NCBI GenBank assembly: GCA_038894195.1
Contig: JAWAPZ010000001.1
Location: forward strand, 129,566 to 193,565
Direction of reading: 5' to 3'
DNA length: 64,000 nucleotides
Origin: Candidatus Pacearchaeota archaeon
Lineage (GTDB): Archaea; Nanobdellota; Nanobdellia; Pacearchaeales; UBA284
Part shown: positions 38,064-54,698 of the stretch, in pieces
Position numbering within the stretch: the first letter of the stretch is position 1
Layout of the letters: each line of letters begins with the position of its first letter
Position numbers and translations under genes: made by a program
Notes under the pieces: generated by a model
Database searches by the model: none
Seen by the model: the letters and a program-made list of their open reading frames with translations, nothing else
What the model was told of the DNA's origin: nothing

Positions 38064-38202
38064 TTTAAAATTAGCTTAATCAATTTTTTGTTTATGTATT
38101 TTCTTTACTTAAAACATAAATTCAGAAGATTTATAAAGGTTTTGGCTCGCTTAATCAAAACTTATTTAAAAGCTGATTCTCTTTTATCTAAAAAGAGGGA
38201 AA

Positions 38203-38733
38203 ATGTTAAGAAGATTAAATCACAAGGCACAAACAATGGGTGTTCCTTTTCAATTGATTTTTTCGCTGATTATTGTAGCTGTTGTTATTGTTTTCGCTTT
38301 TTTGGCTATAAGAATGTTTTTAGAACGAGCAGAGCAAGCTAAGTTTGGGGCTACTTTTACTGAAATTCAAAATGAAATACGTGGAGCATGGGAAAAAGAT
38401 GCAACCAATAGAACAATAACTGTTCTAGTTCCGAAGAAAATTGAGGCTGTATGTTTTTTAAATAAAAGTGCAACTTGTAGAGATCCCTCTGGGGTAGATT
38501 TTTGTGGTTCATACGAATCTTTTATGAATGCTAATGAAAACTTTTTTTTCTATCCTCTTGGAATAGCTGAAGATTATAAAAGCAAGTCTGCATGGAGCTT
38601 GCTGTGCCAGAACCATTCTTGTATAACTAGCCCAAGGAATCCTTTGTGTTTTTTCAAGCAAGATAGTAACATTAAAATTAAAATTGTAAAAAATTTTGAC
38701 GAGCCATTCGTAAGATTATATGAAGTCTATTGA
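38203..38733 (+). CDS. Pilin-like protein with class III (type IV pilin-type) signal peptide, paralogue 1
   Basis: Basic N-terminus, KAQTMG, then the hydrophobic VPFQLIFSLIIVAVVIVFAFLA. Cys-containing C-terminal domain. Confidence 0.5.
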   Translation: MLRRLNHKAQTMGVPFQLIFSLIIVAVVIVFAFLAIRMFLERAEQAKFGATFTEIQNEIRGAWEKDATNRTITVLVPKKIEAVCFLNKSATCRDPSGVDFCGSYESFMNANENFFFYPLGIAEDYKSKSAWSLLCQNHSCITSPRNPLCFFKQDSNIKIKIVKNFDEPFVRLYEVY

Positions 38734-38734
38734 G

Positions 38735-39655
38735 ATGAAAAACAAAAAAGCAATGGAGTTTGCATGGATTTTTGCAATAGTACTGGGTGCAATTATCTTA
38801 TTTCTCGCTTTTTACTTTCTAGGCTCGCAGATTTTTTTGAAAGAAAAAACCAGGTCGACTGAAACCGCCCACAGCACAGAAATACTATTTAATCCATTCT
38901 CGTATCTTGGTGCCATGGGTGCTATAACTTATAAACCAATAGAAATGCAAAAAGAAGTGCAGTTTGAATTTGATTGTGATCCAGACATGGAGATTGTAGG
39001 TAGCAACACAATAATAGTTGATTCCAGCCCAAGGACCATTTATGACAAATATATTTTTAGTGAAAATTTGAAAGCAAAAAGAATAGAAACTATAAGCAAA
39101 TCATTTGAAATGCCCTGGCGTATTGCAGACCTTATCTATGTTTTTCCTTCTGGAAGAGAGTACTGTTTCATAGATGCGCCTTCAAGAATTGAGGAAGAAA
39201 TTGAGCTGTTAAACATAAGTAACATTTTTTTTCAAGAGCCCTGTCCTGAGAATGCAACAAAAGTCTGCTTTGGAAGGGAGGGATGCGAAATAAAAGTCAC
39301 AAACTTAGAAGGATTTTACCATAGAGGATTTGTAGAGAAAAGTGAAGAAACTGGTAGAATGTATTTTATTGGTGATAATTATGCCTTACTGCTTGGCGCT
39401 ATTTTTTCTTCACGAGATTTGTATAATTGTAACTTAAAAAGACTCGCAAAAAGAATTCTACTTGAAGTAAATGTTTACCGAGAAAAACAAAGAATTATGG
39501 CAGAGCGAGGATGCGCTGCTGAAATGAATCTAGAAAGTTTAGAGCAAGCTGCATCAAACGTTAGAGCAAGTGCAAATGAAAATAATTTAAATGCCCTGTA
39601 TCAAGTTGCAAAAGAAATTAAGAATCAAAATTCATACGAATGCCCTTTGTTTTAA
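38735..39655 (+). CDS. Pilin-like protein, paralogue 2 (start set at MKNKKAMEF)
   Basis: MKNKKAMEF followed by AWIFAIVLGAIILFLAF. The same MKNKKA start occurs in paralogue 4. Confidence 0.5.
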   Translation: MKNKKAMEFAWIFAIVLGAIILFLAFYFLGSQIFLKEKTRSTETAHSTEILFNPFSYLGAMGAITYKPIEMQKEVQFEFDCDPDMEIVGSNTIIVDSSPRTIYDKYIFSENLKAKRIETISKSFEMPWRIADLIYVFPSGREYCFIDAPSRIEEEIELLNISNIFFQEPCPENATKVCFGREGCEIKVTNLEGFYHRGFVEKSEETGRMYFIGDNYALLLGAIFSSRDLYNCNLKRLAKRILLEVNVYREKQRIMAERGCAAEMNLESLEQAASNVRASANENNLNALYQVAKEIKNQNSYECPLF

Positions 39656-39656
39656 A

Positions 39657-40142
39657 ATGTTAAAAATATTTAAAAATAAAAAAACACAATTTAAGATACA
39701 AGAGATGGCTTTTGTTCTTTTAGCAGTTGTTCTACTTTTCGGCCTGGTATTTGTTTTTTTTGCAAGGTTCGAGTTGGAGAAAGTTAGAAATATTGCAGAG
39801 ACTACCCGAGAGGAAAGAGCTGTAACACTTGTAAGAGTTATAGCTTCTATGCCTGAATTAAGATGTTCGGGGAGTATAAACAAGATAAGCGAAGCTGCTT
39901 GTCTCGATCTTGATAAAGTCAAAGCATTTAATAACAGTGACGTCTTGAGATCTAATTATAGAAAGATTTGGCAGTCTAGTTTTGTTACTGAAGTAATTGT
40001 TAGAGAAATTTTTCCTGGAAATAAAACGTATACGATTTATAAAGAGCAAGAAAGTAATGAAAGTTACTATAGTTTTATGCCATTATGTTCACAAAAGAAA
40101 TGTGTTGTTGCAAGACTTATAGTTGGAATAAAAACTGTGTAA
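39657..40142 (+). CDS. Pilin-like protein, paralogue 3
   Basis: KNKKTQFKIQEM followed by AFVLLAVVLLFGLVFVFF. Confidence 0.45.
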   Translation: MLKIFKNKKTQFKIQEMAFVLLAVVLLFGLVFVFFARFELEKVRNIAETTREERAVTLVRVIASMPELRCSGSINKISEAACLDLDKVKAFNNSDVLRSNYRKIWQSSFVTEVIVREIFPGNKTYTIYKEQESNESYYSFMPLCSQKKCVVARLIVGIKTV

Positions 40143-40143
40143 G

Positions 40144-40644
40144 ATGAAAAACAAAAAGGCGCAGGAAGAGATGATGGGTTTTTTAATGATAGTAATAATT
40201 ATAGTTATAATAGGACTTGTTTTTTTTGCGTTCTCTTTGAGACAGAAAGGTAAAAACATAGAACCAAAAGCAATGCAACAGGAGGATTTGTTACAAGCTG
40301 TTCTGCTTTATAGTACTGATTGCGAACTTAACAATGAAATGCTAAACGTAAGAGAGCTTATACAAGAATGTAATGAAATGCCTTCAAGAACTTGTGAGAA
40401 TGATAATATCAGGATGTGTAGCAAGCTAGAAGAGAATTTAGAGTCTATGTTAGAGGTTTTGCTTGGAAAAAATCAAAGTATAAAGAACGCTTTTATCCAT
40501 GGATATAGTTTTTATATTAACGCTTCACAAGAGATCTTGATAGAAAAAGGAAATCTAACTGGGGATTATTTCAGTTCAAGGGTTCCTATCCCCGTCGGTT
40601 ATGGCAGTGAAGCTATCATAGTTCTAAAAAGTTATTATAGCTAG
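40144..40644 (+). CDS. Pilin-like protein, paralogue 4
   Basis: MKNKKAQEEMMG followed by FLMIVIIIVIIGLVFFAF. Confidence 0.5.
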   Translation: MKNKKAQEEMMGFLMIVIIIVIIGLVFFAFSLRQKGKNIEPKAMQQEDLLQAVLLYSTDCELNNEMLNVRELIQECNEMPSRTCENDNIRMCSKLEENLESMLEVLLGKNQSIKNAFIHGYSFYINASQEILIEKGNLTGDYFSSRVPIPVGYGSEAIIVLKSYYS

Positions 40645-40671: not shown

Positions 40672-41169
40672 TTAAATGCTTATAGAGAGGTTTAATTTAT
40701 TAACTTGCAAAACAGGTTTGAGTTTCTCTCTTGCTTTTGTTCTTTCTTTTACCATTTTAATTAAACCGAACTTTTCCAAGGTTCTAAGATCCTCCCTTAC
40801 TGCTTTAAAATCTCTGGCAGAAAGTTTAGCTAGTTTGTAGATAGAGCTTGGTTTTTTTGTTTTTATCAAATGTAGCAACCTTGCTTTTTCATTGCTAAGC
40901 AATGCACGGATGTCAGAAAGCTCTATATGCTGACTCAAAGCTAGTGGTCCTGCTTTTCTTAAATCTTTTATACTTTTTGTCACCTCTTCCACGCTTTCAG
41001 TCACTGTTGATTTTATTTTTTTAATAGCTGGGACCCAGGAAGCCAGGGGTGTTTGCTCTAACATACCTGAAATGCCTGTTCCTTTTTTCTGTTCTTCATT
41101 TTGTGCTTGTTTTTCTTGTTTTCTTTCTTTAAAACTAAGAAACAGGTGTATATTTTTCTTGCCTTTCAT
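40672..41169 (-). CDS. Winged-helix/HTH transcriptional regulator
   Basis: C-terminal LSARDFKAVREDLRTLEKFGLIKMVKERTK wing-helix pattern. Confidence 0.45.
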   Translation of the reverse strand: MKGKKNIHLFLSFKERKQEKQAQNEEQKKGTGISGMLEQTPLASWVPAIKKIKSTVTESVEEVTKSIKDLRKAGPLALSQHIELSDIRALLSNEKARLLHLIKTKKPSSIYKLAKLSARDFKAVREDLRTLEKFGLIKMVKERTKAREKLKPVLQVNKLNLSISI

Positions 41170-41490: not shown

Positions 41491-43755
41491 ATGAAACTAC
41501 TTAAGAAAATAGCACCTATAGCAGGAATCCTTTTAATGACTGGATTGACTTTTGGTGCTGCAACAGCAGCAGAACTTGGAACATGGAAAGCAAACTTTCC
41601 ATCAGCAAGTACTTCAATTGTTGTTGGTACAGGCCATAACGATGCAATTGCAATGACAGAAATTGCATCTGAGATTGGAATAACTGCTGCAACCACAACA
41701 GTAACTGGTGAAAGCTACAAGTTTGAAAAAACAAGGGATCACCTTAATCTAGGGGAAAACTTTTACCACATAAAGGAAAGGCTTACAAAAAACGAATTGC
41801 CAACCATACTTGCAGATAAGTCTTACGAGGACGCAGATGGAAATACTTATGATTATACACAAAAAATAAGTATCGCAAACGGAAATAGTCTTACACACTT
41901 CAAGAATGACGACTACAAAGATGGTGCGTTAACTCTCGGGTTTGAATTGAATGAAAATGACCCTATACTAAATTACACTTTGAGCTTTGTAGAGAAACCA
42001 GATTTTGATAATGATACTTTAGAAACAACAGTAATAGAAATGATGGGAAGAGAGTATTATATAAGTAGTATTGATGCTACTGCCGACTCGATGACTTTTC
42101 TTGAAGCCGGACAAACTGCCACAGTGTATGAAGGCGAAACTGCATCAATAGGTGGAAAGAGTGTAAAACTTGTTACTGTTTATCCTTCCGGAGACACGTA
42201 TAAAGCTGTGTTAGAAATAGATGGCACTGAAACAAGGGGTCTTAAAGAGGGTGGAACACAAAAAGTGGGTTCGGTCTATGTTGGTGTTCTTGAAATAAGA
42301 TACAATTCAAGAGAAACAGGGAGAAGCTCTGCACGAATAAGTATAGGTAGTGGAGAAATAGTGATAAAGGATGGAGAAGAAGTAAAAATAAGTGAGAAAA
42401 GTGTAGATAACCTGTTCGGTCATATTGACACCTCTAGTGATAAACTTAACAGCATCACATTAGAATGGCTACTTGAAGAGGATGCATTTCTTGGTTCTGG
42501 GGATGAGATTGTTTTACCTGGTTTCAAAAATATAAAACTGATGATGACAGAAATGGTTTTCCCAACAGGAGAGCAAATAAAAGTTGGTTATTCTGGAACT
42601 AAGAAAGCTTTGTTAAAAGTTCCTATAGAATCTGGAACTGGAACTTCTGATGTTGTTCTTTTGGAAGGTGATGGAACTACCTGGAATTACCTTGGAGAAT
42701 CAAGTAAACCATTGAAGGTTACTAATGAAAGTGAATTTACGGGCCTAACCAAGAAGGACCGCTTCTTTGCCACATACATGGAAGAAGAAGAAGGACAATC
42801 TTATTACTTATATGTATATGGCTTTGACGAAGACAAAGATACAGTAACCTTTAAGTCAGTTGATGGAAGCAGTAGTTGCACAGTTTCTGATGGGGATGAT
42901 TGCACTTTTGGACAGGTTTCATTCAAAGTTGCTGGTTTGGATGCTGAAGGTGAAGAAGTAAACATAACGGCAGCAGATGATGTTTACTTTGACAGAATTG
43001 TTTCAAAAGCAGGAGCTTTGTTTTGGCTTCCCAACACAATAGAAGGTAATGAACACTACATTAATCTCACAGTGAGTAATTCTTGGGATCTTGTTATGTC
43101 TGAAAAAGATGAAGACGGAAATATAGGGGATGGAAAAGAAATAACCTTTGCATTAAAATTCGCAGACGCTAAGGCAACTGTTGGACAACCAACAGCAACA
43201 TGGGCTGGAGGTGATATGCTCGAACAAGATGATGACACTGATGTTGGTTATGTTGAATCGCCCCTTGCAACAAAAGTAGTTTATGAAACTGGTGGCGACC
43301 AGGATTACGCGGATGTGACTTATTTTGGTGAAGAAGTCTACGGTAACGTTTATATTGCAGGTGCTGGTACAACAACCAGCGGTGAAGGCAGTGTAGCTAT
43401 TCTTGATACAGAATTCCTGGCTGGACCAAAGACAAACAATGTCGTGCTTATAGGGGGTTCTGGTGTCAACAAAGCATCAGCTCAGTTGCTCTTTAATTCC
43501 CAAAACCTAGTATATGGAAGTGATCCTGCCTGGGTTGCGGCCACTGGAGTTGACTCTGTTGGTAAGGCACTAGTAAAACTTCAGGCAAGTCCATGGGCTA
43601 CTGGCAAATATGCACTGCTTGTTGCTGGTTTCGAGGCAACAGATACGCTAAGAGCTGCAAGGCTTTTGACAACAACTCCTAGTGCACTAGCGGGAAAAAC
43701 AACTGCCTTACTTAATACAGGTACTGAAGAAGCAACCCTTATAAGTGGTAGCTAA
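41491..43755 (+). CDS. S-layer (surface layer) protein, Methanococcus-type
   Basis: Signal peptide MKLLKKIAPIAGILLMTGLTFGAATAAE. N-terminal DAIAMTEIASEIG and C-terminal ALLVAGFEATDTLRAARLL resemble methanogen S-layer proteins. GC content is markedly above flanking genes. Confidence 0.65.
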   Translation: MKLLKKIAPIAGILLMTGLTFGAATAAELGTWKANFPSASTSIVVGTGHNDAIAMTEIASEIGITAATTTVTGESYKFEKTRDHLNLGENFYHIKERLTKNELPTILADKSYEDADGNTYDYTQKISIANGNSLTHFKNDDYKDGALTLGFELNENDPILNYTLSFVEKPDFDNDTLETTVIEMMGREYYISSIDATADSMTFLEAGQTATVYEGETASIGGKSVKLVTVYPSGDTYKAVLEIDGTETRGLKEGGTQKVGSVYVGVLEIRYNSRETGRSSARISIGSGEIVIKDGEEVKISEKSVDNLFGHIDTSSDKLNSITLEWLLEEDAFLGSGDEIVLPGFKNIKLMMTEMVFPTGEQIKVGYSGTKKALLKVPIESGTGTSDVVLLEGDGTTWNYLGESSKPLKVTNESEFTGLTKKDRFFATYMEEEEGQSYYLYVYGFDEDKDTVTFKSVDGSSSCTVSDGDDCTFGQVSFKVAGLDAEGEEVNITAADDVYFDRIVSKAGALFWLPNTIEGNEHYINLTVSNSWDLVMSEKDEDGNIGDGKEITFALKFADAKATVGQPTATWAGGDMLEQDDDTDVGYVESPLATKVVYETGGDQDYADVTYFGEEVYGNVYIAGAGTTTSGEGSVAILDTEFLAGPKTNNVVLIGGSGVNKASAQLLFNSQNLVYGSDPAWVAATGVDSVGKALVKLQASPWATGKYALLVAGFEATDTLRAARLLTTTPSALAGKTTALLNTGTEEATLISGS

Positions 43756-43952: not shown

Positions 43953-44606
43953 ATGTACAAGATTAAAAAGACCAGAACAAAAATGTTAAAACCACTAGAA
44001 ACAAAAGAAATGCAAGAAAAAAGGATAAAAAAAAGAAATATAATTTTTGGTGTTATAATAGCTGTTATTATGATTGCTGGAACAGTCGGATGGGCTCTTT
44101 CAGGAAGAGAAAAAACAAACCAAGAAGAATACAACGGATTTAAGTTCATAAAGCAAGAGAATTACTGGCAAACTTCAGTAAGCATTTATGGTAGCAATTT
44201 TTTGCTTAGAACTAGTTACTTGCCAAGGGAGGTTGAAAACATAACCAGTAAAAGTAGAACACTTTCATTAGAAAAAATTTATGGCAAGACCCTATATGTT
44301 GTGTTAGATTCGGCTATTGAGCAAGAACCTGTCAGAGAACTTGCACTAAATTTGCAAAATTTTGTTGAAAGAATACAGATTGCTTGTTCAGAAAATGTGT
44401 CAGAAGAAAGTATAAGTTTTTGCTCTGACAAGCCAGTAAAGGGCTGTGATGACGCAACTCTTGAAAATGCAATAATAGTTTTTGAAGAAAAAAATTTAAC
44501 AAAACTGGAGTACAAGGCTGGTTGTTTACAGATACAGGCTCAAGAATCTGATTTTTTGAGGGCTTCGGATAAAGCTTTATTTTTAATTTTTGGTATTATG
44601 ACATAA
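43953..44606 (+). CDS. Hypothetical membrane-anchored protein
   Basis: N-terminal TM helix (IIFGVIIAVIMIAGTVGWAL). Confidence 0.35.
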   Translation: MYKIKKTRTKMLKPLETKEMQEKRIKKRNIIFGVIIAVIMIAGTVGWALSGREKTNQEEYNGFKFIKQENYWQTSVSIYGSNFLLRTSYLPREVENITSKSRTLSLEKIYGKTLYVVLDSAIEQEPVRELALNLQNFVERIQIACSENVSEESISFCSDKPVKGCDDATLENAIIVFEEKNLTKLEYKAGCLQIQAQESDFLRASDKALFLIFGIMT

Positions 44607-44638: not shown

Positions 44639-45367
44639 ATGGACGAGCAAAATAATGAAATAGAAAAGGGAGAAAATGCTGAAGAAAGAGAAAATCTTGA
44701 AAAAGGGCAAGAAAAATTGCCTGGAACTGAAAAAAAAGTTCTAAAAAGTAAAAACATTACCCTAATTATACTTTTACTGGTTATTGCTGCCGTCATAGTT
44801 TTTTTTGTTTTTAAAGATGATATAACTTCTTTTGTTGTTAAAAACAATTTTAATTACAATGGCTTAGAATTTTTTAAGACAACGTTGTACAAAGAAACTT
44901 TCTTCGCGACAAAAGTTAATTTAACTGTAAAAAATGTAAAGAACACACATATCTTCTATTTCAGAAATGATCCTAGAAAACTCGATAGGATCCCTTTTAG
45001 TGTTAATAGAAAAATTGCAACAAAAACTTACGTTTCCTTTACAAAAGAATCCCTTCAATGTGAAACTGTGAATCTTGTTGCATGGAATCTCGGTGATTTT
45101 TTAGGAAGAATGGGTTCTAAAGTTACTGGTGCTGTTGCTGATCCTGAATCCAGTGAAAACGGCACAAAGCTAGTTGTAAATTGTTCAAGTAACAAAAAAG
45201 AGATTATTGTTTTAAAAGCACAAGCTAGCCAAACAAGAGTGTATCAGGATGCTAATAACGAGGGGTGCATCATAATAGAAGCCAAGGATTGTTCGATTAT
45301 AGAAGCAAGTGAAAGATTTATCCTTGGAATGCTTGTAAAAAAAATTAATGAAGAAAAAGTTGAATAG
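44639..45367 (+). CDS. Hypothetical membrane-anchored protein
   Basis: N-terminal acidic region then a TM helix (ITLIILLLVIAAVIVFFVF). Confidence 0.35.
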   Translation: MDEQNNEIEKGENAEERENLEKGQEKLPGTEKKVLKSKNITLIILLLVIAAVIVFFVFKDDITSFVVKNNFNYNGLEFFKTTLYKETFFATKVNLTVKNVKNTHIFYFRNDPRKLDRIPFSVNRKIATKTYVSFTKESLQCETVNLVAWNLGDFLGRMGSKVTGAVADPESSENGTKLVVNCSSNKKEIIVLKAQASQTRVYQDANNEGCIIIEAKDCSIIEASERFILGMLVKKINEEKVE

Positions 45368-45651: not shown

Positions 45652-48600
45652 CTATCTAAATTTTTTAAGAACCTGACCAAGTTTTCTTTCTCTTATTTCT
45701 TTGATTATTAAAAATTTTTTTCTGTAGGACAGTAGGATCACCACTGCAACTATGGCAACAATTATAACAGTCCATGCCAGGATACCCATTCTAAATGCTT
45801 CTTCCTCAAGAGGAATTTCTTCAATCTCTTTGAATTTAGAAATAATCAACGTTACTTTCCCATCTTTTATCTCTTTAATTTTTATTGTTATATCCTCTCT
45901 ACCATCCCTATCAAGATCTATGTTCTTAGCCTCACCAACTTGTATTGTTAAAGTAACCAGTGAATTTATTTCAATAGTTACTTTGTTATTGCCTATATTC
46001 AAAATTTTTATAACGTGTTCTTCACCATTGACAATAAATTGAATGGTTTCCCCCTGGCTCATGTTTATTTCTTTGCTACTTTCTGATAGCTCTCCAATGC
46101 TGTAAGGAGGAACACCCCCCCTTGTATCTTCGGTTGTTACATTTGTTTGGTTAGTTACATTGGTCACATTTTGTTGTGTCGTGCCTCCACCGCCTCTATT
46201 TCCGCCGCCATCTTCTTCCTCCTCAACAATAGATTTTCCAACAATATTTGGTTCTATGCCAGAGAAGTGTGGTATTTTAAACCAAACCATATTATGTGCC
46301 AAATCTTTATAACATAAACCAGTCAAGTTTTCATCACTTTCATTACAAAGCACAGCACTTCCATTAATGTATTCAATATAAATATCAGTTTTGTAATCTT
46401 CATAATCAGTTCCATTTAATTCTTCTATATCCTCACCTTGTTCCCAAATATATTGCCACTCTTCATCATAAAATTTAGTTATATTAACTTTCATGTCCTC
46501 AGATTCATTTATTGCAGAACTGTTATAAGGAACACCTATTATTACATAGTCATATATATTAGGACCCATGCTTCCAAAACGCCAGGCTTCTTTCATCATG
46601 TTGCCACTTGGAGTTTTATTAGCACTTTCATCAAAAATTCCATCTGGCGGCTGACTTGCCAATAAATCAACATTTACATAATGAATGGTTATGTTTGTTG
46701 TGTTCTGTCTCATTTCTAGATCATACTTACCTCCACTTATAACCCATGTAAATGGATTTGGTGGGCCTCCGCCCTGCCCAACGCCTTCTGGCAAGCATCC
46801 TAGATCACCAGGAGTCTCGTTAGGCCATGGCACAGAACAAGAACCATCATCTTTGTATTTAAAGTTTCTAAACTGAACATTTTGTATTTCCTCACCATCT
46901 GGCCTTTTTGCTTTTAATTGCTCAAGTATAAGTTCAAAAGGACTTTCTTGTAAATCTTCTACTTTGATCGTTCTTTTTATTGGAGGAAATTGCGGAGAGA
47001 ATATTCTTATATTAATACTGTCATTTAGTAAAGGAATTTTTATTATATTATTATCTCCAGAATCAGCCATCCAAGAGAAGGAAGCATCTGATCCAGAAAA
47101 TTTAGAGTAATCTACTTCTATTTCTGCATGAACATTTGTAACTCCTGTTTTGTTTCCATCTTCTAACAAACTTGTTATGTTAAATGCAAAGAGGGAAGTA
47201 TTAATTGGTTCGCCTATCTCTCCAACTTTGCTCTCGAGTGTTGCTTCTTCTCCAACCATTGGATAAAGAGTTAAATTTAATTCTGTAGGATTTTCACCAT
47301 AATTTAAAGTAACTGTTTTAAAACCACCATACCATACACCCTCTTTTTTTGCCGAAGCAAATAACAAAATATTGGCTCCATACAGTGCTGCTGGTAGTGT
47401 TATATTGTAGAAGCCAGTTGTTTTATCGAGAACATCTTCAACAGGTGGTTCATCATGCTGTCCTATGTTTTGCGGCATCATTGCACCTAAAAATACCATT
47501 TTTCCTGCTTCAAGCAAAAAGCCAACAACTGTATAATTGTCAAAGTTTTGATTCCCATTAGAACCATTTAATTTTGAAAAACCACTTAACTGAACCAAAT
47601 CTGTTGTCAAGTTTAATTCTGTAAGGTTCAAGTACAGAGCTTGATTTATTGATGTTATTGTTCTATTTTCTACTGTTCCAAGAGAAATATTATTACCATA
47701 AACCAAATTATTTAATTCTATACTAACTGGAAAAGCCGGGCCTCCTTCAGGGTAAATCATAAGAGAGTAATTTCTATCAGCAGGAATATAAACTCTATCA
47801 AAATACTTTAATTCATTAAAACTTTCTTTTATTCCATAACCTAATTTTTTGTCTTTAAACTGATATCTAAAAGCATACTCGTTCGTAAAAAAATTTATGT
47901 TTGTTAAATTTTTATCTGGCGAAGAAGAAGCAATAAAATATCTTGGATTCTCATAAAAAACATCATCAACAAAGCCATTAACAACCAAACCTTCTGTTAA
48001 GTTTACTGGTCTATCACAACTAAAATCTTCACCCATAAAAATTTTGTAAAAAACATATCTTCCTGAATTATTTCCTATTCCAAAGCCACCCCCAGGGTTG
48101 AAAAGCATCTTTCCAACATAACAGTTGGGTGTATAAAAATCTTTATGAAGAGTAAAATTAGGATAATAAATATAAACGTGGCTTTCCCCACTTCCATTTA
48201 GTGCTGAAACAAAAAATTTTCCTTCCTCTCCTGCAAATTCATTAAACGAAATGCCACCAATTTCACTGAATTCTTCTGAAGACAAATCTGTGTAGTTTCC
48301 CTCGTTGCAATCCATTGTTCCCTCACTAACATTTAAAAAACATCTTTGAACTCCTGTCAGATTAATAAAATAAAACACCCATAAACCCTCTTCTACTGGT
48401 CCGTCAGTAAACTCTTTTATGTTTGTTATATTTAAATCGCAAAAAGAATTATTATAATCTAAAGTTTCATTTAAAAAAATAAGACAATCACTCCCATTTA
48501 TATAAGTATATTGTTTTTCTCCAGAATTATTTATTATGGCTAACCCGGTTTTATAATCTTCTGGAAAAGAACCAATATTATTATATTCTATCTTGCTTTC

Positions 48601-49074
48601 ATCTTCTGTCACATACTCTTGACCAATTGCAGAAATATCAATAGTTATGGCCGGCCTTAAATAAAAATAAACTGTTCCTAAGTTGCTTATCTGCTCAGCT
48701 GGAAAATAAGGCAAGTTAGGCCCTATAAATCTTGCATAATTCTCGTTATATTTTATAAGAACTATTTTATACATGAAACTTTCACTTAGGTGTTCCCCGT
48801 CAATTGTTATGTTGAAATATCCACTTCCGTTTGATAAAGTCGAAAGAGTTGCGTTCAGAGAGGGCGGGCCAATCTCGCTTCGTTGATAAATTTCAATAGT
48901 TACATTTGTTTCATTTAAATATTCTTGCCCTCCCTCTTCGATGCCTATTGTATAGCCAGTAATATTGAATGGTGTTAATCCATTAGCAGAAACATTTTGT
49001 GACAATACTGCCAACAATACTAAACATAATAACGAAAAAAAAACTTTGTAGTTCTTTAAAATTATTTTTTTCAT
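45652..49074 (-). CDS. Large secreted cell-surface protein (1140 aa) with signal peptide, Gly/Thr/Gln stalk and C-terminal TM anchor
   Basis: N-terminal signal peptide. Dozens of N-x-S/T sequons. GGGPPNPF and RGGGGTTQQNVTNVTNQTN stalk. C-terminal TM plus basic tail. Confidence 0.55.
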   Translation of the reverse strand: MKKIILKNYKVFFSLLCLVLLAVLSQNVSANGLTPFNITGYTIGIEEGGQEYLNETNVTIEIYQRSEIGPPSLNATLSTLSNGSGYFNITIDGEHLSESFMYKIVLIKYNENYARFIGPNLPYFPAEQISNLGTVYFYLRPAITIDISAIGQEYVTEDESKIEYNNIGSFPEDYKTGLAIINNSGEKQYTYINGSDCLIFLNETLDYNNSFCDLNITNIKEFTDGPVEEGLWVFYFINLTGVQRCFLNVSEGTMDCNEGNYTDLSSEEFSEIGGISFNEFAGEEGKFFVSALNGSGESHVYIYYPNFTLHKDFYTPNCYVGKMLFNPGGGFGIGNNSGRYVFYKIFMGEDFSCDRPVNLTEGLVVNGFVDDVFYENPRYFIASSSPDKNLTNINFFTNEYAFRYQFKDKKLGYGIKESFNELKYFDRVYIPADRNYSLMIYPEGGPAFPVSIELNNLVYGNNISLGTVENRTITSINQALYLNLTELNLTTDLVQLSGFSKLNGSNGNQNFDNYTVVGFLLEAGKMVFLGAMMPQNIGQHDEPPVEDVLDKTTGFYNITLPAALYGANILLFASAKKEGVWYGGFKTVTLNYGENPTELNLTLYPMVGEEATLESKVGEIGEPINTSLFAFNITSLLEDGNKTGVTNVHAEIEVDYSKFSGSDASFSWMADSGDNNIIKIPLLNDSINIRIFSPQFPPIKRTIKVEDLQESPFELILEQLKAKRPDGEEIQNVQFRNFKYKDDGSCSVPWPNETPGDLGCLPEGVGQGGGPPNPFTWVISGGKYDLEMRQNTTNITIHYVNVDLLASQPPDGIFDESANKTPSGNMMKEAWRFGSMGPNIYDYVIIGVPYNSSAINESEDMKVNITKFYDEEWQYIWEQGEDIEELNGTDYEDYKTDIYIEYINGSAVLCNESDENLTGLCYKDLAHNMVWFKIPHFSGIEPNIVGKSIVEEEEDGGGNRGGGGTTQQNVTNVTNQTNVTTEDTRGGVPPYSIGELSESSKEINMSQGETIQFIVNGEEHVIKILNIGNNKVTIEINSLVTLTIQVGEAKNIDLDRDGREDITIKIKEIKDGKVTLIISKFKEIEEIPLEEEAFRMGILAWTVIIVAIVAVVILLSYRKKFLIIKEIRERKLGQVLKKFR

Positions 49075-49218
49075 CTTGCCTCTTTTTTAAAGTTAAGAAA
49101 AAACAGATATATAAATATTTCGTTTATAATTTTGTTCTAACTTCGGGTTTTGATACCAAAGACCATTATTTCTTAGCCATTACTTGAAAATCTATCTCTC
49201 TTAATCTTTTTTTTGTTT

Positions 49219-50892
49219 TTATTTTACTCTAGATTTTCTCCACCAGTAGTGCCTCTTTCTTGCAATTAACATCCATGCAGCAAGAAAAACTACGGCAGCA
49301 GCAAGGATAATTATGACCGCCCATCTAGCATCGAACCATTCAAAACCTATTCTGCATTTTTTTCTTTGCCCTGTTAGATTGTCTGTCTGATCAGTTAGAT
49401 TTCCAGTTAAGTTGCCTGTTACATTTGTTAAATTAGATGAAAATTCTCCTATAGCTTTCAAGAGCAAGTCGATCTTGCTGGTGCTTAGTTTTGTTAAAGT
49501 TACAGAAAAATCATTTATGTTATTCGCGTTTAAATCAAATTCTTTTGTTTCATTAAGTGTAAGAGTTGTTGTTACTGGTTTCGAGTTAATTTCTAAAGTT
49601 GTTGAATTGCTTGTTATATCTTTTACAGTAATTAAATGAGTTTCATTACCAAGAGTAAAGTTAATTTTCTCATCTTTTGCAACATTACTTACAGTTTTGT
49701 TTGTTCCTGTTATATTACCAATATTATGTATTCCTTGGGGAGGTGAATTGCATGTCTTGCTCGTAGAATTGCAACCATAAGTACAATTTTCTATTGTTAC
49801 CCATTCATCATCAATACATTTTTGTAAAGCATCGCCAGAACATCTTTTTGCATTTTCAGTACATGTTGTGCCACCACCACTTGTAGTAGATTTTATAGTT
49901 ATATCCCGAGTTTCAGAGTTATCTGAATTGCCAGCATAGTCATAACACTTAACATACCACTCATATGTTCCTTTTTCAAGCTCGATATCTGAAAATTCTT
50001 GTTGCGTGCCATTTTCTACACTAGCATCAGTATCTTCTAAATCATCGTCTATATACAGAGAACAATTCTTAATACCAAAATTATCTGTAACATTGTACTT
50101 AAAATCTATCGTTGTTGAAGTTGTATTATAATTATCTGCCGGAGATTTTAGATGCACTTCTGGTTTTGTTGTGTCTATTGTTAAAGTTCTATTGCTTGAG
50201 AAATTACAATTTCCTGCAGCATCACAAGCATAACAGTTCCATAAATATCTTGCATTTGCAGTCAAGCTATGGGTAAATGTTGTTGTATTGTTTGTTCCTG
50301 AAACATTACTTGAGTTTTTTTCTTGCCAGCCAGACCAATTGCCATAAAGAGTTATGTTACCTAAATTGTAATTGTCCTGAGCTGTGCAATTAAATGTAAC
50401 ACTTGTACTCGAAAGATTAGCATAAGCAACTGGAGCATTCAATGTCACACTTGGTGCTGTCGTGTCATTTACTTCAAGGTCTAATATAATGTCCCAAGAT
50501 CCTGTTGCATTAGTGATAGTTATTGTTAAATTATAATTACCTGGCTCAGAAACTGTAACATTAAACCAAAAGTATTCTATAGAGTTATTCATAACAAGAC
50601 CTTCTTTTTCCCAGCTTAAAACACTGGATGTGTTAGAAAAATTAGCTTCAGCAACACTGCTACCATTAGAATCTGTAATGAATATAAAACCAGAAGGTAA
50701 AGTTATATTAACTTGGGTTATATTTGATTCTTCTGTCTCATAACTATTGTTTATTGAAATGTTAATTAAAGATGAAACATCTTCTTTAATTGAATTTTCT
50801 TGTAGCTGAGCAGAATAATCGGCAAGAACAAAAAAAGGTAGGATTGCTATAAGAAGCATAACAAAAAAAATTACTATCAAGACTTTCTTCAT
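49219..50892 (-). CDS. Secreted surface protein (557 aa) with the shared NCxxCDxxGNC domain and C-terminal TM anchor
   Basis: Signal peptide. VTFNCTAQDN...ITLYGNWSGW...YLWNCYACDAAGNCNFSSNRTLTID domain. Cys-rich CxxxC segment. C-terminal TM plus RKRHYWWRKSRVK. Confidence 0.55.
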   Translation of the reverse strand: MKKVLIVIFFVMLLIAILPFFVLADYSAQLQENSIKEDVSSLINISINNSYETEESNITQVNITLPSGFIFITDSNGSSVAEANFSNTSSVLSWEKEGLVMNNSIEYFWFNVTVSEPGNYNLTITITNATGSWDIILDLEVNDTTAPSVTLNAPVAYANLSSTSVTFNCTAQDNYNLGNITLYGNWSGWQEKNSSNVSGTNNTTTFTHSLTANARYLWNCYACDAAGNCNFSSNRTLTIDTTKPEVHLKSPADNYNTTSTTIDFKYNVTDNFGIKNCSLYIDDDLEDTDASVENGTQQEFSDIELEKGTYEWYVKCYDYAGNSDNSETRDITIKSTTSGGGTTCTENAKRCSGDALQKCIDDEWVTIENCTYGCNSTSKTCNSPPQGIHNIGNITGTNKTVSNVAKDEKINFTLGNETHLITVKDITSNSTTLEINSKPVTTTLTLNETKEFDLNANNINDFSVTLTKLSTSKIDLLLKAIGEFSSNLTNVTGNLTGNLTDQTDNLTGQRKKCRIGFEWFDARWAVIIILAAAVVFLAAWMLIARKRHYWWRKSRVK

Positions 50893-50954
50893 CTTCCCTC
50901 TTTATTTTTTCTTTGAAAAAATAAGTTAAATGATATTAAAAATCTTTCGTTTTT

Positions 50955-53900
50955 CTATTTTCTCTTTTTCTTTTTGAAAACTGTAAAAAAGATTAAAACA
51001 ATTAAAATTATTGCAACTAAAATTAGTAAAATGTAAAGAAGAGGGAGAGAAATTTTTCTAACAGACTCTTCCCCTAATTTTTCTTCTTTCTTCTCTTCTG
51101 TTTTATTTCCTTCTTTCTTCTCTTCTCTTGTTATTGGTTGCTGTGGCATTGTTACATTTGTTATGTTTGTTACATTTTGTTGTGTTGTTCCTCCACCTCT
51201 ACCGCCACCGCTGCTAGGAGAGTAATACATAGGAGCGAGAATCGCATGATGGGTAATGCTAACGTTTCCAGAATAAACATAATTATGTGCTGTGTTGACT
51301 CCGCTGCTTGCAAGCTCGTTCCAAGAGCCATTATAAGCAAACATTTTCAAGCTAGCTTCATTACTAATTTCCCTTTCATCATAGCTAACATTAAGATAGA
51401 TCCATGAATTTCCTGATGCTGCAATTACATTAACAAATTTACCAATGTTTTCATAGTTCCTTGGATCCGAGGCTGGTGCTATTGTCTTATTTAAAGCAAT
51501 ATTTTCTGACGTAAAACTTACTGTTTCTTCTAAGCCGATATCAAAATAAGAAACTATATTATTTGTAGAGTTTAGTTGAGAAACAAATGCAAAAAGTTGA
51601 TTATTTTTTGACTCGTCATTAATTAAAATGTTGTTATCAGAATCTGATAATATAGTCCCAACCTGATTATTGTTGGTTTTTGATGAAAGAATATAAGTGT
51701 AATGACTTCCTGTCAAAAAGATTCCAAAGCTATTTGAGTTGGCAGTTGTATTAAAGATAACATTTGTTGAAGAGTAAACAACTTCAACACCAAGATAGCC
51801 AGAATCAAAAGAAGAATTCGTTATGTTGTTGTGGTTGGAATCAAAAATAGCCAAACCAAAATAATTACCGGAAGAATTGATTAGATCAAAAGTTGTATTT
51901 TCAGTTGCTAAAACAAGCAAGCCATTGTTGTCAATACTCTCAGAGCCAGCAATGGTTATGTTCTTAAGTGAAGAATTATCGGCATTGCATAAAATTAATT
52001 CTGAGAGAGTTTCATTTTCTAAGGTTACGCTAGAATTATAGAATTTTATTTCTCTGTCGCCAGAACCGGTGTTATTCTCTATAAGATTATTGCAATTTTC
52101 CTCTAAAGAAGCATAACCCATCAAATCAAACAAGTTGTTTTCTCTTATCATATTATTAATAATAACATTGTTTTGACCGTCTTCAAGATAAAGGCCATAA
52201 AGGTTATATTCAAAAATGCTATCATTAATATTATTGCCATTAGAATCTTCTAAATAAATTCCATAATAATTTCCAGAAGAATTAACCAAACTAAAATTAG
52301 AATAATCTGTATAATAGACAAATATGCCATTGTTTTGCAAGTAATCAGAACCGATAACAGTTACATTATAAATTGAAGAGCTATCTGCGTTACATAAAAT
52401 AAGTTCAGAAAAAATTTCGTCGCTTAAGTTAACACTTTCGTTATAGAAAGCAATAGCTCTTCCATCAGAACCAATAACATCTTCAATAAAGATATGATCA
52501 CAACCAGAATCTGATAAGCTATTAAACCCTACATCTTGCTGTAAGTTATCTTGAACATTACAATTGCTTATGTTTATACTTAGCTCGCCAGTGTCGGGAA
52601 GATCGTAAACGTAAATGCCTGTACTAAAATTAGAAATTGTCAAATTAAAAATAGTTATATTTCCACTTTGAGAAGTGTTTATTCCGTAACCTGTGCTATT
52701 GCCAGTAATGCTATAGTTAGCTCCGTCAATCACTACGTTATCTGAACCAATTGTGAAGCAAGTTCCATTGCTCTGTAAGTTTCCATTTAAAGTGCATGAT
52801 TCATAAATTCTATCGCCACATGTATAAATCATGCCGCTTTCTGCAACACAGCCATAAGGAATTGTTAAAGTTCTATTGCTTGAAGCAAAAACACAATTTC
52901 CAGCAGCATCACATGCCTGACAATTCCAAACATAGGTTCCTGAATCAAGAATTTTTTCAAAAATTACTGGTGTTGCATTTTCTGGCGAGCTATTGGTTTC
53001 ATTAGCGTGCCAGCCACCAGACCAATTGCCGTAAAGAGTTACATTTGTCAAATTTACATTATCAGAAGCAGAACAATTAAATGTAATATTTCTTAAGTTT
53101 GAAGTAAAGTTATCTTCTGGTTCGTTCAAACTAACTTCTGGCTCTCCATAATCTAAAGTAAAGGTCTTCGTTGCAGATGTATTAACTATACCAAAATCTT
53201 CTTCCCAACACTGAATTTTCCAGTTGTAAATTCCTTTTTCACTAAGAATGTATGTTATTATAGTAAGTGTATTATTTTCTGCAATAGTTGTATTAACAAC
53301 AGTATTGTTTATTATTAAATCGCAATTAGCGTTTGTTGCATTTTTATTTATCGTTGTAAAATTAAAAGTTATTAAAGAATCATTTGTTATATAATTATCC
53401 TCTGGAAAGTTTAGTAAGATGCTCGGCTTAAAGTTCGGCGCATTGACTGTATGCGGATAATTAATTTCATCAGTTACATTACATTCATTAAAACCCAACT
53501 TGAAGTAACCATTTTCTCCCCAACCTGTGCCCCAGCTGTTTTTTATTATCCAGTAACTTGTTTCATCATTTCCAGTATCATTATAGCCTACAATTAGTAC
53601 AGCGTGATTGGCATAATCATCATCGGTGCATCTTTCGATACGGCCATCACCAACTAGGTCATCTGCATTAATTGCTGTAGCCAAGGGCCCATAATCAATA
53701 AGTAATTGCTCTACTTGTTTATTTGTTAACCCACTTGGCCATAACCACGTGTAATCATTTATTTTCCATAATCTCTGTGAGTAACTTGAGCATCTATTTG
53801 AGCATATTGTATCAGAGCAGTTTCCACTAGTGTTATAAGTGCAACTTAAAATCGAGCCACAATAATAAAAGCAATCACAACCTGAACCATCAACGTAATT

Positions 53901-54677
53901 AAAACAATTTTCGTCACTTATACCATCTGTCATGATAAAATCAAGAGCGACATCAATCCAGCCGCCACAACAGTTCTCATACAAGCCATAATAAGGATCT
54001 GTATGACAGTTAGAAACAAGATACTCTTCTGCAATATTTGAATTTAATCTTGAATTGTTCTGATTAATTTCATACTTGGCTTCGACTGAAGCAACCGCAG
54101 CAAAGGCCCAGCAAGAGCCACAAGATCCTTGATCCTTAACAGAAGTAAGCCATCCATTGCTTGTATCAAAAAATGTAAAATTATATTTACTATACCTTGT
54201 TCCATTCGGAGGATTGCGCCAATCCCAGTAAGGAAAATCAGAAGCATTATAAGTTTTAATTGGACTATACCCTTGGCTTGAAATTCTTCTTTGTGGTCTT
54301 TCCTTTTCCTTGCCACATGTCATTTTTTCTTTTAAATTCATTAACTTAGAGACAGGGATTTCCTCTATTTTTCCAGATTCATTATCAGGAACAATACAGA
54401 AAGCCATGCCATTCTTACTTTTAAGCTCATAGCCCTGCTTAGAACAGTAAGAAAATTCCTGGCCGCATTCACCTCTAAAAAAAGACCATTCATCACATTT
54501 TTCATTGTTTGGCATAACACAAATACCTTTTTGGCCTAAAGAAGTTTCAACAACCTTATACTTATAACCTAATTCGCTACAATAAACTGCTGCAGGATTC
54601 GGTAGAGCAGAAACATAAGCAATGTTTGCTAGAAAGATAACTATCAAAATTAAAAACAAAATTTTTTTCATTTTCAT
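50955..54677 (-). CDS. Membrane-anchored papain-like (C1A) cysteine protease fused to DUF333 repeats, parallel beta-helix repeats and the shared NCxxCDxxGNC domain (1240 aa)
   Basis: C1 catalytic motifs QGSCGSCWAF (Cys), NHAVLIVGY (His) and IKNSWGTGWGENGYFKL (Asn). N-terminal YCSELGYKY...CDEWSFFRGECG is DUF333-like. The beta-helix repeats are SGNYYGIYLEDSNGNNINDS...LYGLYLEDGQNNVI. Also has WNCQACDAAGNC, a GGGRGGGTTQQNVTNITN stalk and a C-terminal TM. Confidence 0.8.
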   Translation of the reverse strand: MKMKKILFLILIVIFLANIAYVSALPNPAAVYCSELGYKYKVVETSLGQKGICVMPNNEKCDEWSFFRGECGQEFSYCSKQGYELKSKNGMAFCIVPDNESGKIEEIPVSKLMNLKEKMTCGKEKERPQRRISSQGYSPIKTYNASDFPYWDWRNPPNGTRYSKYNFTFFDTSNGWLTSVKDQGSCGSCWAFAAVASVEAKYEINQNNSRLNSNIAEEYLVSNCHTDPYYGLYENCCGGWIDVALDFIMTDGISDENCFNYVDGSGCDCFYYCGSILSCTYNTSGNCSDTICSNRCSSYSQRLWKINDYTWLWPSGLTNKQVEQLLIDYGPLATAINADDLVGDGRIERCTDDDYANHAVLIVGYNDTGNDETSYWIIKNSWGTGWGENGYFKLGFNECNVTDEINYPHTVNAPNFKPSILLNFPEDNYITNDSLITFNFTTINKNATNANCDLIINNTVVNTTIAENNTLTIITYILSEKGIYNWKIQCWEEDFGIVNTSATKTFTLDYGEPEVSLNEPEDNFTSNLRNITFNCSASDNVNLTNVTLYGNWSGGWHANETNSSPENATPVIFEKILDSGTYVWNCQACDAAGNCVFASSNRTLTIPYGCVAESGMIYTCGDRIYESCTLNGNLQSNGTCFTIGSDNVVIDGANYSITGNSTGYGINTSQSGNITIFNLTISNFSTGIYVYDLPDTGELSINISNCNVQDNLQQDVGFNSLSDSGCDHIFIEDVIGSDGRAIAFYNESVNLSDEIFSELILCNADSSSIYNVTVIGSDYLQNNGIFVYYTDYSNFSLVNSSGNYYGIYLEDSNGNNINDSIFEYNLYGLYLEDGQNNVIINNMIRENNLFDLMGYASLEENCNNLIENNTGSGDREIKFYNSSVTLENETLSELILCNADNSSLKNITIAGSESIDNNGLLVLATENTTFDLINSSGNYFGLAIFDSNHNNITNSSFDSGYLGVEVVYSSTNVIFNTTANSNSFGIFLTGSHYTYILSSKTNNNQVGTILSDSDNNILINDESKNNQLFAFVSQLNSTNNIVSYFDIGLEETVSFTSENIALNKTIAPASDPRNYENIGKFVNVIAASGNSWIYLNVSYDEREISNEASLKMFAYNGSWNELASSGVNTAHNYVYSGNVSITHHAILAPMYYSPSSGGGRGGGTTQQNVTNITNVTMPQQPITREEKKEGNKTEEKKEEKLGEESVRKISLPLLYILLILVAIILIVLIFFTVFKKKKRK

Positions 54678-54698
54678 CTCTTTTTTATTAAAAAATGA

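What the first reader, a model, noticed from the sequence alone, without database searches (positions are those of the whole stretch)
38203..40644. Four tandem paralogous pilin-like genes with class III signal peptides
All four proteins start with a basic motif ((M)KNKKA(Q)..M) directly followed by a 20-25-residue hydrophobic helix, the hallmark of archaeal type IV pilin-like (class III) signal peptides. They then carry 120-280 aa Cys-containing domains. The cluster is tightly packed on one strand, between the exosome/proteasome superoperon and an HTH regulator plus the S-layer gene. No assembly ATPase or prepilin peptidase lies in the window. They may be minor pilins or envelope-associated substrates of a peptidase encoded elsewhere.
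Basis: partly seen in the sequence, partly recalled or inferred. Interest (0 to 1): 0.55.

Follow-up and report, generated by a model that had tools for sequence, protein, structure and literature searches.

The report
Four pilin-like genes beside S-layer gene
Four back-to-back genes of an ultra-small (Pacearchaeota, DPANN) archaeon encode unannotated surface proteins with the N-terminal signature and long N-terminal helix of archaeal type IV pilins, and this quartet almost always sits directly upstream of the S-layer gene, which points to one pilin-like envelope complex rather than an ordinary pilus operon.

Summary
Four + strand genes are separated by one base each: A 38203-38733, B 38735-39655, C 39657-40142, D 40144-40644. 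Each encodes a short basic leader, a [KR][GA] site usually followed by Gln, a strongly conserved 21-residue hydrophobic helix, and a Cys-paired, sequon-bearing outer domain.

They are not paralogues overall. Only the first 45-75 residues are related, as is typical of pilins.

Each protein defines its own family, found only in Pacearchaeota, Woesearchaeota and "Nanoarchaeota" MAGs. All are named hypothetical, and none reaches the cut-off of any Pfam or NCBIfam model.

AlphaFold2 models of A and B are confident (pLDDT 92-93). Both show a 49-54-residue N-terminal helix followed by a β-rich head. The heads match no PDB fold. The only PDB sequence hit is a bacterial type IV pilin (E = 0.0012).

In about 65 independent loci the order is A-B-C-D, wHTH regulator (opposite strand), anchorless S-layer protein, then two type II anchored proteins. 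There is one exception. No pilus ATPase, platform protein or prepilin peptidase lies within about 10 kb in any locus.

Best reading: a stand-alone, minor-pilin-like heteromeric complex processed by a class III signal peptidase, functionally tied to the S-layer. Cleavage, assembly and the S-layer role are inferred, not shown.

The parts
38161..38202 (+). Putative promoter and ribosome-binding region of the quartet: TATA-like TTATTTAAAA about 35 nt upstream of the ATG, and AGAGGG 5-10 nt upstream of the ATG.
   Evidence: Read directly from the sequence. Not tested.
38203..38733 (+). Gene A, 176 aa. Leader MLRRLNHKA, predicted cleavage before Q10, hydrophobic helix, β-rich head with 6 Cys.
   Evidence: AF2: pLDDT 91.9, helix 16-64 then β strands. 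Profile hit to type IV pilin PilE1 (8pfb), E=0.0012. 538 relatives, two of them named UPF0333 family by JGI; 100% identical to NCBI QXP53_00940, Ca. Pacearchaeota.
38735..39655 (+). Gene B, 306 aa (the longest ORF starts at 38720). Leader MKNKKA. Conserved F9, W11 and F13; G18 invariant. β domain plus C-terminal helical bundle with 8 conserved Cys.
   Evidence: AF2: pLDDT 93.3, pTM 0.86, helix 8-61. No PDB fold or sequence match.
39657..40142 (+). Gene C, 161 aa (the longest ORF starts at 39591). Leader MLKIFKNKKT, then the near-invariant QxKIQEMAFVL. 4 conserved Cys. Thr at predicted -1 in this genome only.
40144..40644 (+). Gene D, 166 aa. Leader MKNKKA, then invariant QEE..GF. 4 conserved Cys.
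   Evidence: Weak Pilin_N hits in 4/24 members.
40672..41169 (-). Winged-helix regulator (Pfam PF25212, HVO_A0114 family), convergent with the quartet and divergent from the S-layer gene. Conserved at this position.
   Evidence: E=5e-15. Synteny.
41491..43755 (+). S-layer-type protein, 754 aa. Sec signal peptide, strong GGAGG ribosome-binding site, no C-terminal membrane anchor.
   Evidence: Pfam S_layer_C 24.3 bits against a cut-off of 23.9. Sequence. All homologues lack a C-terminal TM.
43953..44606 (+). Gene E, 217 aa. Type II (uncleaved-type) N-terminal anchor and a 4-Cys outer domain. Always follows the S-layer gene.
44639..45367 (+). Gene F, 242 aa. Type II anchor, follows E. Its profile cross-recruits E, which may reflect only the N-terminal anchors.

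Best explanation
A, B, C and D are four different type IV pilin-like (class III signal peptide) proteins, made from one translationally coupled operon.

Proposed mechanism:
1. Each protein inserts in the membrane by its hydrophobic N-terminal segment.
2. A PibD/EppA-type prepilin peptidase encoded elsewhere removes the short Lys-rich leader after [KR][GA], mostly exposing Gln at +1.
3. The four mature proteins pack through their conserved N-terminal helices into one heteromeric 1:1:1:1 assembly. This would resemble a minor-pilin tip or priming complex, or a short pseudopilus.
4. The disulfide-bonded, probably glycosylated heads sit in the space beneath or within the S-layer.

The quartet is almost always next to the gene for an S-layer protein that has no membrane anchor, and never next to pilus machinery. 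The complex therefore most likely works with the S-layer, either tethering it or passing through it, rather than being the shaft of a long adhesive pilus.

Shown: gene structure, motif and helix conservation, predicted architecture, synteny and taxonomic range.
Inferred: cleavage, heteromer formation, localisation and the S-layer link.
For: Operon. One-base gaps separate the four genes.

Cleavage-site pattern. [KR][GA] precedes the hydrophobic stretch in 164/176 family members, against 13% of controls. Lys/Arg at -3 and Gln at +1 are conserved without being imposed by the search. Leader length varies from 3 to 28 residues and is poorly conserved, while everything after the site is conserved. 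A basic -2 residue and the importance of positions -2/-1/+1 are the stated hallmarks of archaeal SPase III substrates (PMC3387779). EppA-type sites are a recognised subclass (PMC3387779, PMC6098224).

Helix conservation. Pairwise identity in the hydrophobic helix is 0.59-0.75, against 0.33-0.41 in the heads. The plain TM anchors of E and F in the same loci show 0.26-0.42 against 0.33-0.39.

Shared N-terminal module. Profile-profile matches between families are limited to the N-terminal 44-74 aligned residues (probability 91-94% for A-D, C-D and B-A).

Structure. AF2 gives helix 16-64 followed by β strands for A (pLDDT 91.9) and helix 8-61 followed by a β domain and helices for B (pLDDT 93.3).

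Database hits. The only PDB sequence hit of the A profile is a type IV pilin, covering mature residues 6-87 (E=0.0012). There are sub-threshold hits to classIII_w_PIP, ComGD and Pilin_N. JGI names two A members 'UPF0333 family'.

Outside location. Cys counts are even and the Cys are conserved and confined to the heads; each protein has 2-3 N-X-S/T sequons.

One-to-one co-occurrence. All four genes occur in fixed order wherever the contig is long enough.

S-layer link. The S-layer gene follows in 22/23 genome-derived and 42/42 metagenome-derived informative loci. All S-layer homologues lack a membrane anchor.

Precedent. Stand-alone pilin genes outside T4P operons, and S-layer-like proteins in T4P loci, are described in archaea (PMC4858521; preprint 10.64898/2026.04.22.720090).
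Against: No member reaches the curated cut-off of any pilin or class III Pfam/NCBIfam model.

No secretion ATPase, TadC/FlaJ-type platform or A24 peptidase occurs in the 64-kb window or in about 1.2 Mb of flanks around about 105 related loci. One paper states that type IV pilus components are missing in DPANN genomes (10.1101/2020.05.14.094862), although others report TFF systems in some DPANN (10.64898/2026.04.22.720090; PMC6142677).

The window's own C has Thr at -1.

The upstream proteasome/exosome genes are also syntenic in 17 loci, so some of the linkage may be general synteny. One locus (L025) has the quartet without the S-layer gene.
Confidence: 0.6

Rival explanations
1. Ordinary bitopic membrane proteins. 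The N-terminal segment is an uncleaved Sec signal anchor (type II topology). A-D are four unrelated envelope or S-layer accessory proteins, like E and F, with no link to the type IV filament superfamily.
For: No curated pilin family is matched above its cut-off. There are no structural matches to pilins. No pilus machinery lies in any flank. He et al. state that T4P components are missing in DPANN. E and F in the same cluster are plain anchors.
Against: A plain anchor does not explain the near-universal [KR][GA](Q) site (93-100% against 13% in controls). It does not explain conserved Glu/Gln directly after the basic residues (invariant QEE in D, QxKIQEM in C). It does not explain a TM helix twice as conserved as the ectodomain, when the E/F anchors are not. 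It also leaves unexplained the cross-family N-terminal homology and the pilin hit extending into the amphipathic half of the helix.
Confidence: 0.17
2. Conventional pilus subunits. One of the four is the major pilin of a long adhesive type IV pilus used for host attachment, and the others are its minor pilins. Assembly is by an ATPase/platform operon elsewhere in the genome. The position next to the S-layer gene is only inherited synteny.
For: The class III-like N-termini and pilin-like architecture apply equally. Major pilins in archaea are often encoded away from the machinery (PMC4858521). TFF 'system 1' with EppA-type sites is reported in a few DPANN. The proteasome/exosome genes upstream are also syntenic in 17 loci.
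Against: All four are strictly single-copy and one-to-one, with large, different, Cys-rich heads of 160-310 aa. Known archaeal major pilins of the EppA class are small and prone to tandem duplication (PMC4858521). Linkage to the S-layer gene survives where the upstream context differs (L004, L006, L029) and holds in 64/65 informative loci. No machinery is nearby in about 105 loci.
Confidence: 0.15
3. Mis-called or chance ORFs: low-GC sequence giving Lys-rich starts followed by hydrophobic runs.
For: The genome has about 33% GC, which favours AAA/AAG and hydrophobic codons.
Against: Each ORF has hundreds of full-length homologues at 25-60% identity with conserved Cys. AF2 models are confident.
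Confidence: 0.01

Closest known systems
Archaeal EppA-type (Epd, TFF 'system 1') pilins of Methanococcus maripaludis: EpdA-C minor pilins and EpdE (UPF0333 / DUF361, class III signal peptides)
   Same: Short basic leader, Lys/Arg at -2, Gly/Ala at -1, Gln at +1, then a conserved hydrophobic helix. Several different pilin-like proteins are co-transcribed. Some pilin genes lie away from the ATPase/platform genes (PMC4858521, PMC6098224, PMC3387779).
   Different: No member reaches the Pfam or NCBIfam class III or pilin models. The heads are much larger (120-270 aa) and of unmatched fold. No EppA, PilB or PilC lies in the neighbourhood. The position is fixed next to the S-layer gene. The families occur only in Pacearchaeota/Woesearchaeota.
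Bacterial minor-pilin quartets that form tip/priming complexes (GspH-I-J-K of type II secretion, FimU-PilV-PilW-PilX of type IVa pili, ComGD-GG); comparison from own knowledge
   Same: Four adjacent genes with related N-terminal helices but unrelated heads, one much larger than the others (B, as with GspK/PilX), kept in strict one-to-one ratio. Three A-family members give sub-threshold ComGD hits.
   Different: No sequence or fold relation of the heads was detected. The cleavage site is archaeal-type (basic -2, no Phe+1/Glu+5). There is no adjacent major pilin or machinery. Heteromer formation was not tested.
ArlF/ArlG (FlaF/FlaG) of the archaellum: pilin/archaellin-related, N-terminally anchored proteins that bind the S-layer (Banerjee et al. 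2015, listed in PMC6098224; own knowledge)
   Same: N-terminal hydrophobic helix plus a β-rich domain in the pseudo-periplasm. This is a precedent for a pilin-related protein whose job is contact with the S-layer rather than filament formation.
   Different: No archaellum genes are present here and no sequence similarity was found. The quartet has a conserved cleavage-site motif. S-layer binding by A-D is only inferred from gene order.
[quoted passage not shown]
   Same: Large functional ectodomains on a class III signal/helix, thought to sit in a pilus-like assembly near the S-layer rather than in a long pilus (PMC3387779; preprint 10.64898/2026.04.22.720090).
   Different: The heads are not solute-binding proteins, there is no ABC transporter context, and no Bas-type ATPase is nearby.

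Membership tests
Archaeal class III (prepilin-type) signal peptide proteins | Short N-terminal leader ending in a basic residue at -2 and Gly/Ala (Ser) at -1, directly before the hydrophobic H-domain (PMC3387779) | tested here: met
   164/176 members of the four families have it, against 13% of controls. In the window, A, B and D meet it; C has Thr at -1.
Archaeal class III (prepilin-type) signal peptide proteins | Cleavage by a PibD/EppA/FlaK (A24) peptidase on the N-terminal side of the H-domain | not testable with these tools
   Needs proteomics or an enzyme assay.
Archaeal class III (prepilin-type) signal peptide proteins | Match to curated models (Pfam Class_IIIsignal or Pilin_N; NCBIfam class III or pilin models) | tested here: not met
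   Only sub-threshold hits: Pilin_N at E 0.02-0.18 in 4/24 D members; classIII_w_PIP in 6/104 and ComGD in 3/104 A members.
Type IV pilin fold (type IV filament superfamily subunits) | N-terminal α-helix of about 50 residues, the first half hydrophobic, followed by a β-sheet head | tested here: met
   AF2 gives helix 16-64 for A and 8-61 for B, each followed by β strands, with pLDDT 92-93. C and D were not modelled.
Type IV pilin fold (type IV filament superfamily subunits) | Structural similarity of the whole subunit to solved pilins | tested here: inconclusive
Type IV pilin fold (type IV filament superfamily subunits) | Assembly by a PilB/FlaI-type ATPase and a PilC/TadC/FlaJ platform | not testable with these tools
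   None lies within the 64-kb window or about 10 kb of about 105 related loci. Whole genomes could not be searched. The literature disagrees on DPANN.
Minor-pilin tip/priming complex (GspHIJK-like) | The subunits form one heteromeric complex through helices and heads | not tested
   No multimer prediction was available. Support is indirect: fixed gene order, translational coupling and one-to-one co-occurrence.

The most novel reading that the evidence does not exclude
Pacearchaeota and Woesearchaeota have turned a set of four pilin-derived proteins into a fixed, non-filamentous envelope organelle. Processed or not, the four proteins would form the membrane-embedded pillar that holds the anchorless S-layer lattice to the cell, possibly together with E and F. 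They would do so without a dedicated pilus ATPase. This would be the first S-layer anchor built from type IV pilin-like subunits, and would help explain how these ultra-small cells build their envelope.
Probability: 0.15. Interest if true: 0.75.

Novelty: new variant of a known kind. Interest (0 to 1): 0.5.

Why it matters
Pacearchaeota and Woesearchaeota are abundant, uncultivated, host-dependent archaea with very small genomes, and their cell surface is what meets the host. This work gives four 'hypothetical' protein families a testable identity: A has at least 538 members and B at least 868. Together with a regulator, the S-layer gene, two anchor proteins and, in many relatives, pacearchaeosortase, they form a conserved envelope gene block. 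If the quartet is processed by a prepilin peptidase, type IV filament biology is present in a lineage where some authors report it as missing. If it binds the S-layer, it offers an answer to how an S-layer protein without a membrane anchor is held on the cell. The unmatched head folds are also new structural families.

Tried and rejected
Exact-sequence look-ups. Look-ups of D and of A (P0286) found no contig on record, so the rest of the source genome could not be reached.

Structure-based steps.
- Foldseek of both models against the PDB gave nothing significant.
C and D therefore remain unmodelled.

Family and profile searches.
- Pfam and NCBIfam scans of every member of the four families gave only sub-threshold hits mixed with transmembrane noise.
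- Profile searches of B, C and D against PDB sequences found nothing meaningful.
- An iterative HMM search with full-length proteins merged the four families through their N-termini. I repeated it with the globular parts only, which separated them cleanly.

Neighbourhood checks.
- Insertions between C and D in some relatives are unrelated genes: GNAT, nucleotidyltransferase/HEPN and a Na/Pi transporter. They are not missing machinery.
- Multi-TM neighbours were checked for A24 peptidase or TadC. They turned out to be MFS, PAP2, DedA, AI-2E and pacearchaeosortase.
- The presenilin/SPP-type GxGD protease in the window was considered as the processing enzyme. I rejected it as evidence because it belongs to a different family (PF06550, not A24) and is 27 kb away.

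Literature. Searches found no description of this cluster, and nothing on HVO_A0114.
Full report
**What is there**

The + strand between 38203 and 40644 carries four ORFs. Comparison with relatives fixes the likely starts of B at 38735 and of C at 39657, rather than the longest ORFs at 38720 and 39591. The four genes are then separated by one base each:
- A, 38203-38733, 176 aa
- B, 38735-39655, 306 aa
- C, 39657-40142, 161 aa
- D, 40144-40644, 166 aa

A TATA-like TTATTTAAAA and an AGAGGG ribosome-binding site precede A. The layout is that of one translationally coupled operon.

Upstream, on the other strand, lie proteasome alpha, SBDS and the exosome genes. Downstream lie a convergent winged-helix regulator (Pfam PF25212, E=5e-15) and a 754-aa secreted protein that just passes Pfam S_layer_C (24.3 bits against a cut-off of 23.9).

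The window comes from a Candidatus Pacearchaeota MAG. Protein A is 100% identical to NCBI QXP53_00940, on a 214,946-bp contig.

**The N-termini**

All four proteins begin with a short Lys-rich leader, then Lys/Arg followed by Gly/Ala, then a hydrophobic stretch of about 21 residues:
- A: ...HKA|QTMGVPFQLIFS
- B: KKA|MEFAWIFA
- C: KKT|QFKIQEMAFVL
- D: KKA|QEEMMGFLMIV

I collected relatives in four ways: a full HMMER scan (641 representative clusters for B), word-indexed searches (868 proteins for B and 538 for A), 21 genome loci and 80 metagenome loci.

A [KR][GA] pair lies within 8 residues upstream of the hydrophobic stretch in 24/24 A, 94/104 B, 22/24 C and 24/24 D sequences. Lys/Arg at -3 and Gln at +1 were not imposed by the search; Gln at +1 occurs in 17/24 A, 22/22 C and 24/24 D. 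The same test on other ORFs from the same loci with an N-terminal hydrophobic stretch gives 11/85. On the two anchor proteins E and F it gives 3/24.

Leaders vary from 3 to 28 residues and are poorly conserved, whereas the residues after the site are nearly invariant: QEE..GF in D, QxKIQEMAF in C, FxWxF...G in B.

Mean pairwise identity in the hydrophobic helix is 0.59-0.75, against 0.33-0.41 in the heads. The plain anchors of E and F in the same loci show no such excess (0.26-0.42 against 0.33-0.39).

A basic -2 residue, a small -1 residue and cleavage on the N-terminal side of the H-domain define archaeal class III signal peptides. Sites recognised by the specialised peptidase EppA form a known subclass (PMC3387779, PMC6098224). 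That EppA substrates carry Gln at +1 is from my own knowledge of Szabó et al. 2007, which I could not open.

The window's own C is a deviant, with Thr at -1.

**Are they paralogues?**

Only at the N-terminus. BLASTP among the four finds only the first ~40 residues. Family searches with the globular parts alone give four disjoint families. Profile-profile comparison aligns only the N-terminal 44-74 residues, with probability 91-94% for A-D, C-D and B-A and no match for A-C. This is the usual situation among pilins of one system.

**Structure**

AlphaFold2 with 104-sequence alignments gives confident models.
- B: pLDDT 93.3, pTM 0.86. Helix 8-61, then a β domain, then a C-terminal helical bundle.
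- A: pLDDT 91.9, pTM 0.78. Helix 16-64, then β strands.

A helix of about 50 residues with a hydrophobic first half, followed by a β-rich head, is the type IV pilin architecture.

At sequence level the A profile has one meaningful PDB hit, the type IV pilin PilE1 (8pfb). The match spans mature residues 6-87 at E=0.0012, beyond the purely hydrophobic part.

No Pfam or NCBIfam model is reached. The only hints are sub-threshold hits to Pilin_N, classIII_w_PIP and ComGD, and JGI's 'UPF0333 family' name on two A members.

Cys residues are even in number (6, 8, 4, 4), conserved and confined to the heads. Each protein has 2-3 N-glycosylation sequons. Both features fit an extracytoplasmic location.

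**Neighbourhood**

Wherever the contig is long enough, the order is A, B, C, D, wHTH on the opposite strand, S-layer protein, E, F.
- The S-layer gene follows in 22 of 23 non-redundant loci from genomes and exact-protein look-ups.
- It follows in 42 of 42 metagenome loci with at least 1.3 kb after D.
- This holds down to 30% identity in B.
- It also holds where the upstream genes differ: RFC in L004, a trypsin-like protease and RNase P protein in L006 and L029.

The single exception, L025, has an inversion that puts the exosome operon after D.

Part of the conservation is general synteny, since proteasome/SBDS/Rrp4 also precede A in 17 loci.

All S-layer homologues have a Sec signal peptide and no C-terminal membrane anchor.

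In 19 more distant loci the block continues with pacearchaeosortase (NF033505, E 1e-50 to 1e-65), in several together with DedA/VTT and PAP2 genes. The region is therefore an envelope-biogenesis block.

Across the 64-kb window and about 1.2 Mb of flanks I found no T2SSE-type ATPase, no TadC/FlaJ-like platform and no A24-type peptidase. The window does hold a presenilin/SPP-type GxGD protease at 10247-11278. That is a different family and I do not count it as evidence.

**Interpretation**

The best-supported reading is that A-D are four distinct type IV pilin-like proteins, processed by a class III signal peptidase encoded elsewhere. They would act together as one heteromeric assembly held by their N-terminal helices, analogous to a minor-pilin tip or priming complex or a short pseudopilus.

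Four observations make a role at the S-layer (tether, pillar or passage) more likely than a role as the shaft of a long pilus:
- strict one-to-one conservation of the four genes;
- large and dissimilar heads;
- absence of nearby machinery;
- near-invariant position beside an anchorless S-layer protein.

Precedents exist. Stand-alone pilin genes and S-layer-like proteins occur in archaeal T4P loci (PMC4858521; 10.64898/2026.04.22.720090). Sulfolobus has class III 'bindosome' proteins (PMC3387779). The pilin-related ArlF binds the S-layer (cited in PMC6098224).

Cleavage, complex formation and S-layer contact are all inferences.

The main rival is that these are uncleaved signal-anchor proteins. 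It is kept alive by the lack of curated-family and fold matches, by the absence of machinery nearby, and by one statement that T4P components are missing from DPANN (10.1101/2020.05.14.094862). Other work reports TFF systems in some DPANN and in Nanoarchaeota (10.64898/2026.04.22.720090; PMC6142677). A plain anchor, however, explains none of the cleavage-site pattern, the acidic or Gln residues right after it, or the excess conservation of the helix.

**Novelty and score**

I found no description of this cluster, and every database name is 'hypothetical protein'. It is a new variant of a known kind: four new pilin-like families with unmatched heads, in a fixed quartet tied to the S-layer gene and separate from any assembly machinery, restricted to Pacearchaeota and Woesearchaeota.

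Interest is moderate (0.5). A specialist would not be surprised by pilin-like proteins in an archaeon. The invariant S-layer linkage in a lineage with disputed pilus machinery does, however, make a concrete and testable hypothesis about envelope architecture in DPANN archaea.

Noticed in passing
window 10247-11278 (+) and 11280-11771 (-): A presenilin/signal-peptide-peptidase-type GxGD intramembrane protease (Pfam PF06550, E=1.7e-11; YD and GGGD motifs). It lies tail to tail with a 163-aa N-terminally anchored protein whose SMDPT...GDN motifs look like an archaeal type I signal peptidase. Pfam gave no hit for the second, so that is my own reading.
   Followed up: partly
window 43953-44606 (+) and 44639-45367 (+): Two type II anchored proteins, E and F, each with a 4-Cys outer domain. 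They follow the S-layer gene wherever the contig extends far enough in relatives and have no known domain. Their profiles cross-recruit, which may reflect only the N-terminal anchors. They may be the S-layer's real membrane partners.
   Followed up: partly
L006 16459-16998, L024 16200-16697, L057 7874-8410 and 16 other loci: Pacearchaeosortase (NCBIfam NF033505, E 1e-50 to 1e-65) lies just downstream of E/F in 19 related loci, in several together with DedA/VTT and PAP2 genes. It is absent from the 64-kb window and from its closest relatives.
   Followed up: partly
window 39684-39686 (codon for Thr10 of C): The window's protein C has Thr at the predicted -1 cleavage position (KKT|Q), where 22 of 24 relatives have Gly/Ala. 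It may be cleaved poorly, or the site may tolerate Thr.
   Followed up: no
window 45652-62342 (-): A run of six sequon-rich surface proteins, most very large (201-1240 aa). Most have a C-terminal TM segment plus a basic tail. Pfam finds Ig/cadherin-like domains in the 723-aa protein. The 1240-aa protein (50955-54677) carries a papain-type CGSCWAF motif, by my own reading.
   Followed up: no
window 62479-62839 (+): Archaeal RNase P RNA (Rfam RF00373): 82.1 bits, just under the gathering score of 84, E=5e-23, in a GC-rich island (0.45-0.48 against about 0.30). It explains the spurious overlapping ORFs there.
   Followed up: yes
L004 19650-20405 (-) and L024 4446-5228 (+): A fifth class III-like protein type in relatives (MF..KRGQ followed at once by a hydrophobic helix; 251-260 aa). 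It has no Pfam hit and lies about 5-10 kb from the quartet. Its presence shows that this N-terminal signature is used more widely in the lineage.
   Followed up: no
L009 10457-12034, L011 11441-12963, L013, L027, L032: Unrelated genes are inserted between C and D in several relatives: a Na/Pi-type transporter, or GNAT plus a nucleotidyltransferase/HEPN pair. The C|D junction therefore tolerates insertions, while A-B-C stays contiguous.
   Followed up: partly
window 15325-15440 (-) and 19248-19320 (-): Two tRNA genes. The first spans 116 bases against a 71-position model, so it probably contains an intron.
   Followed up: no
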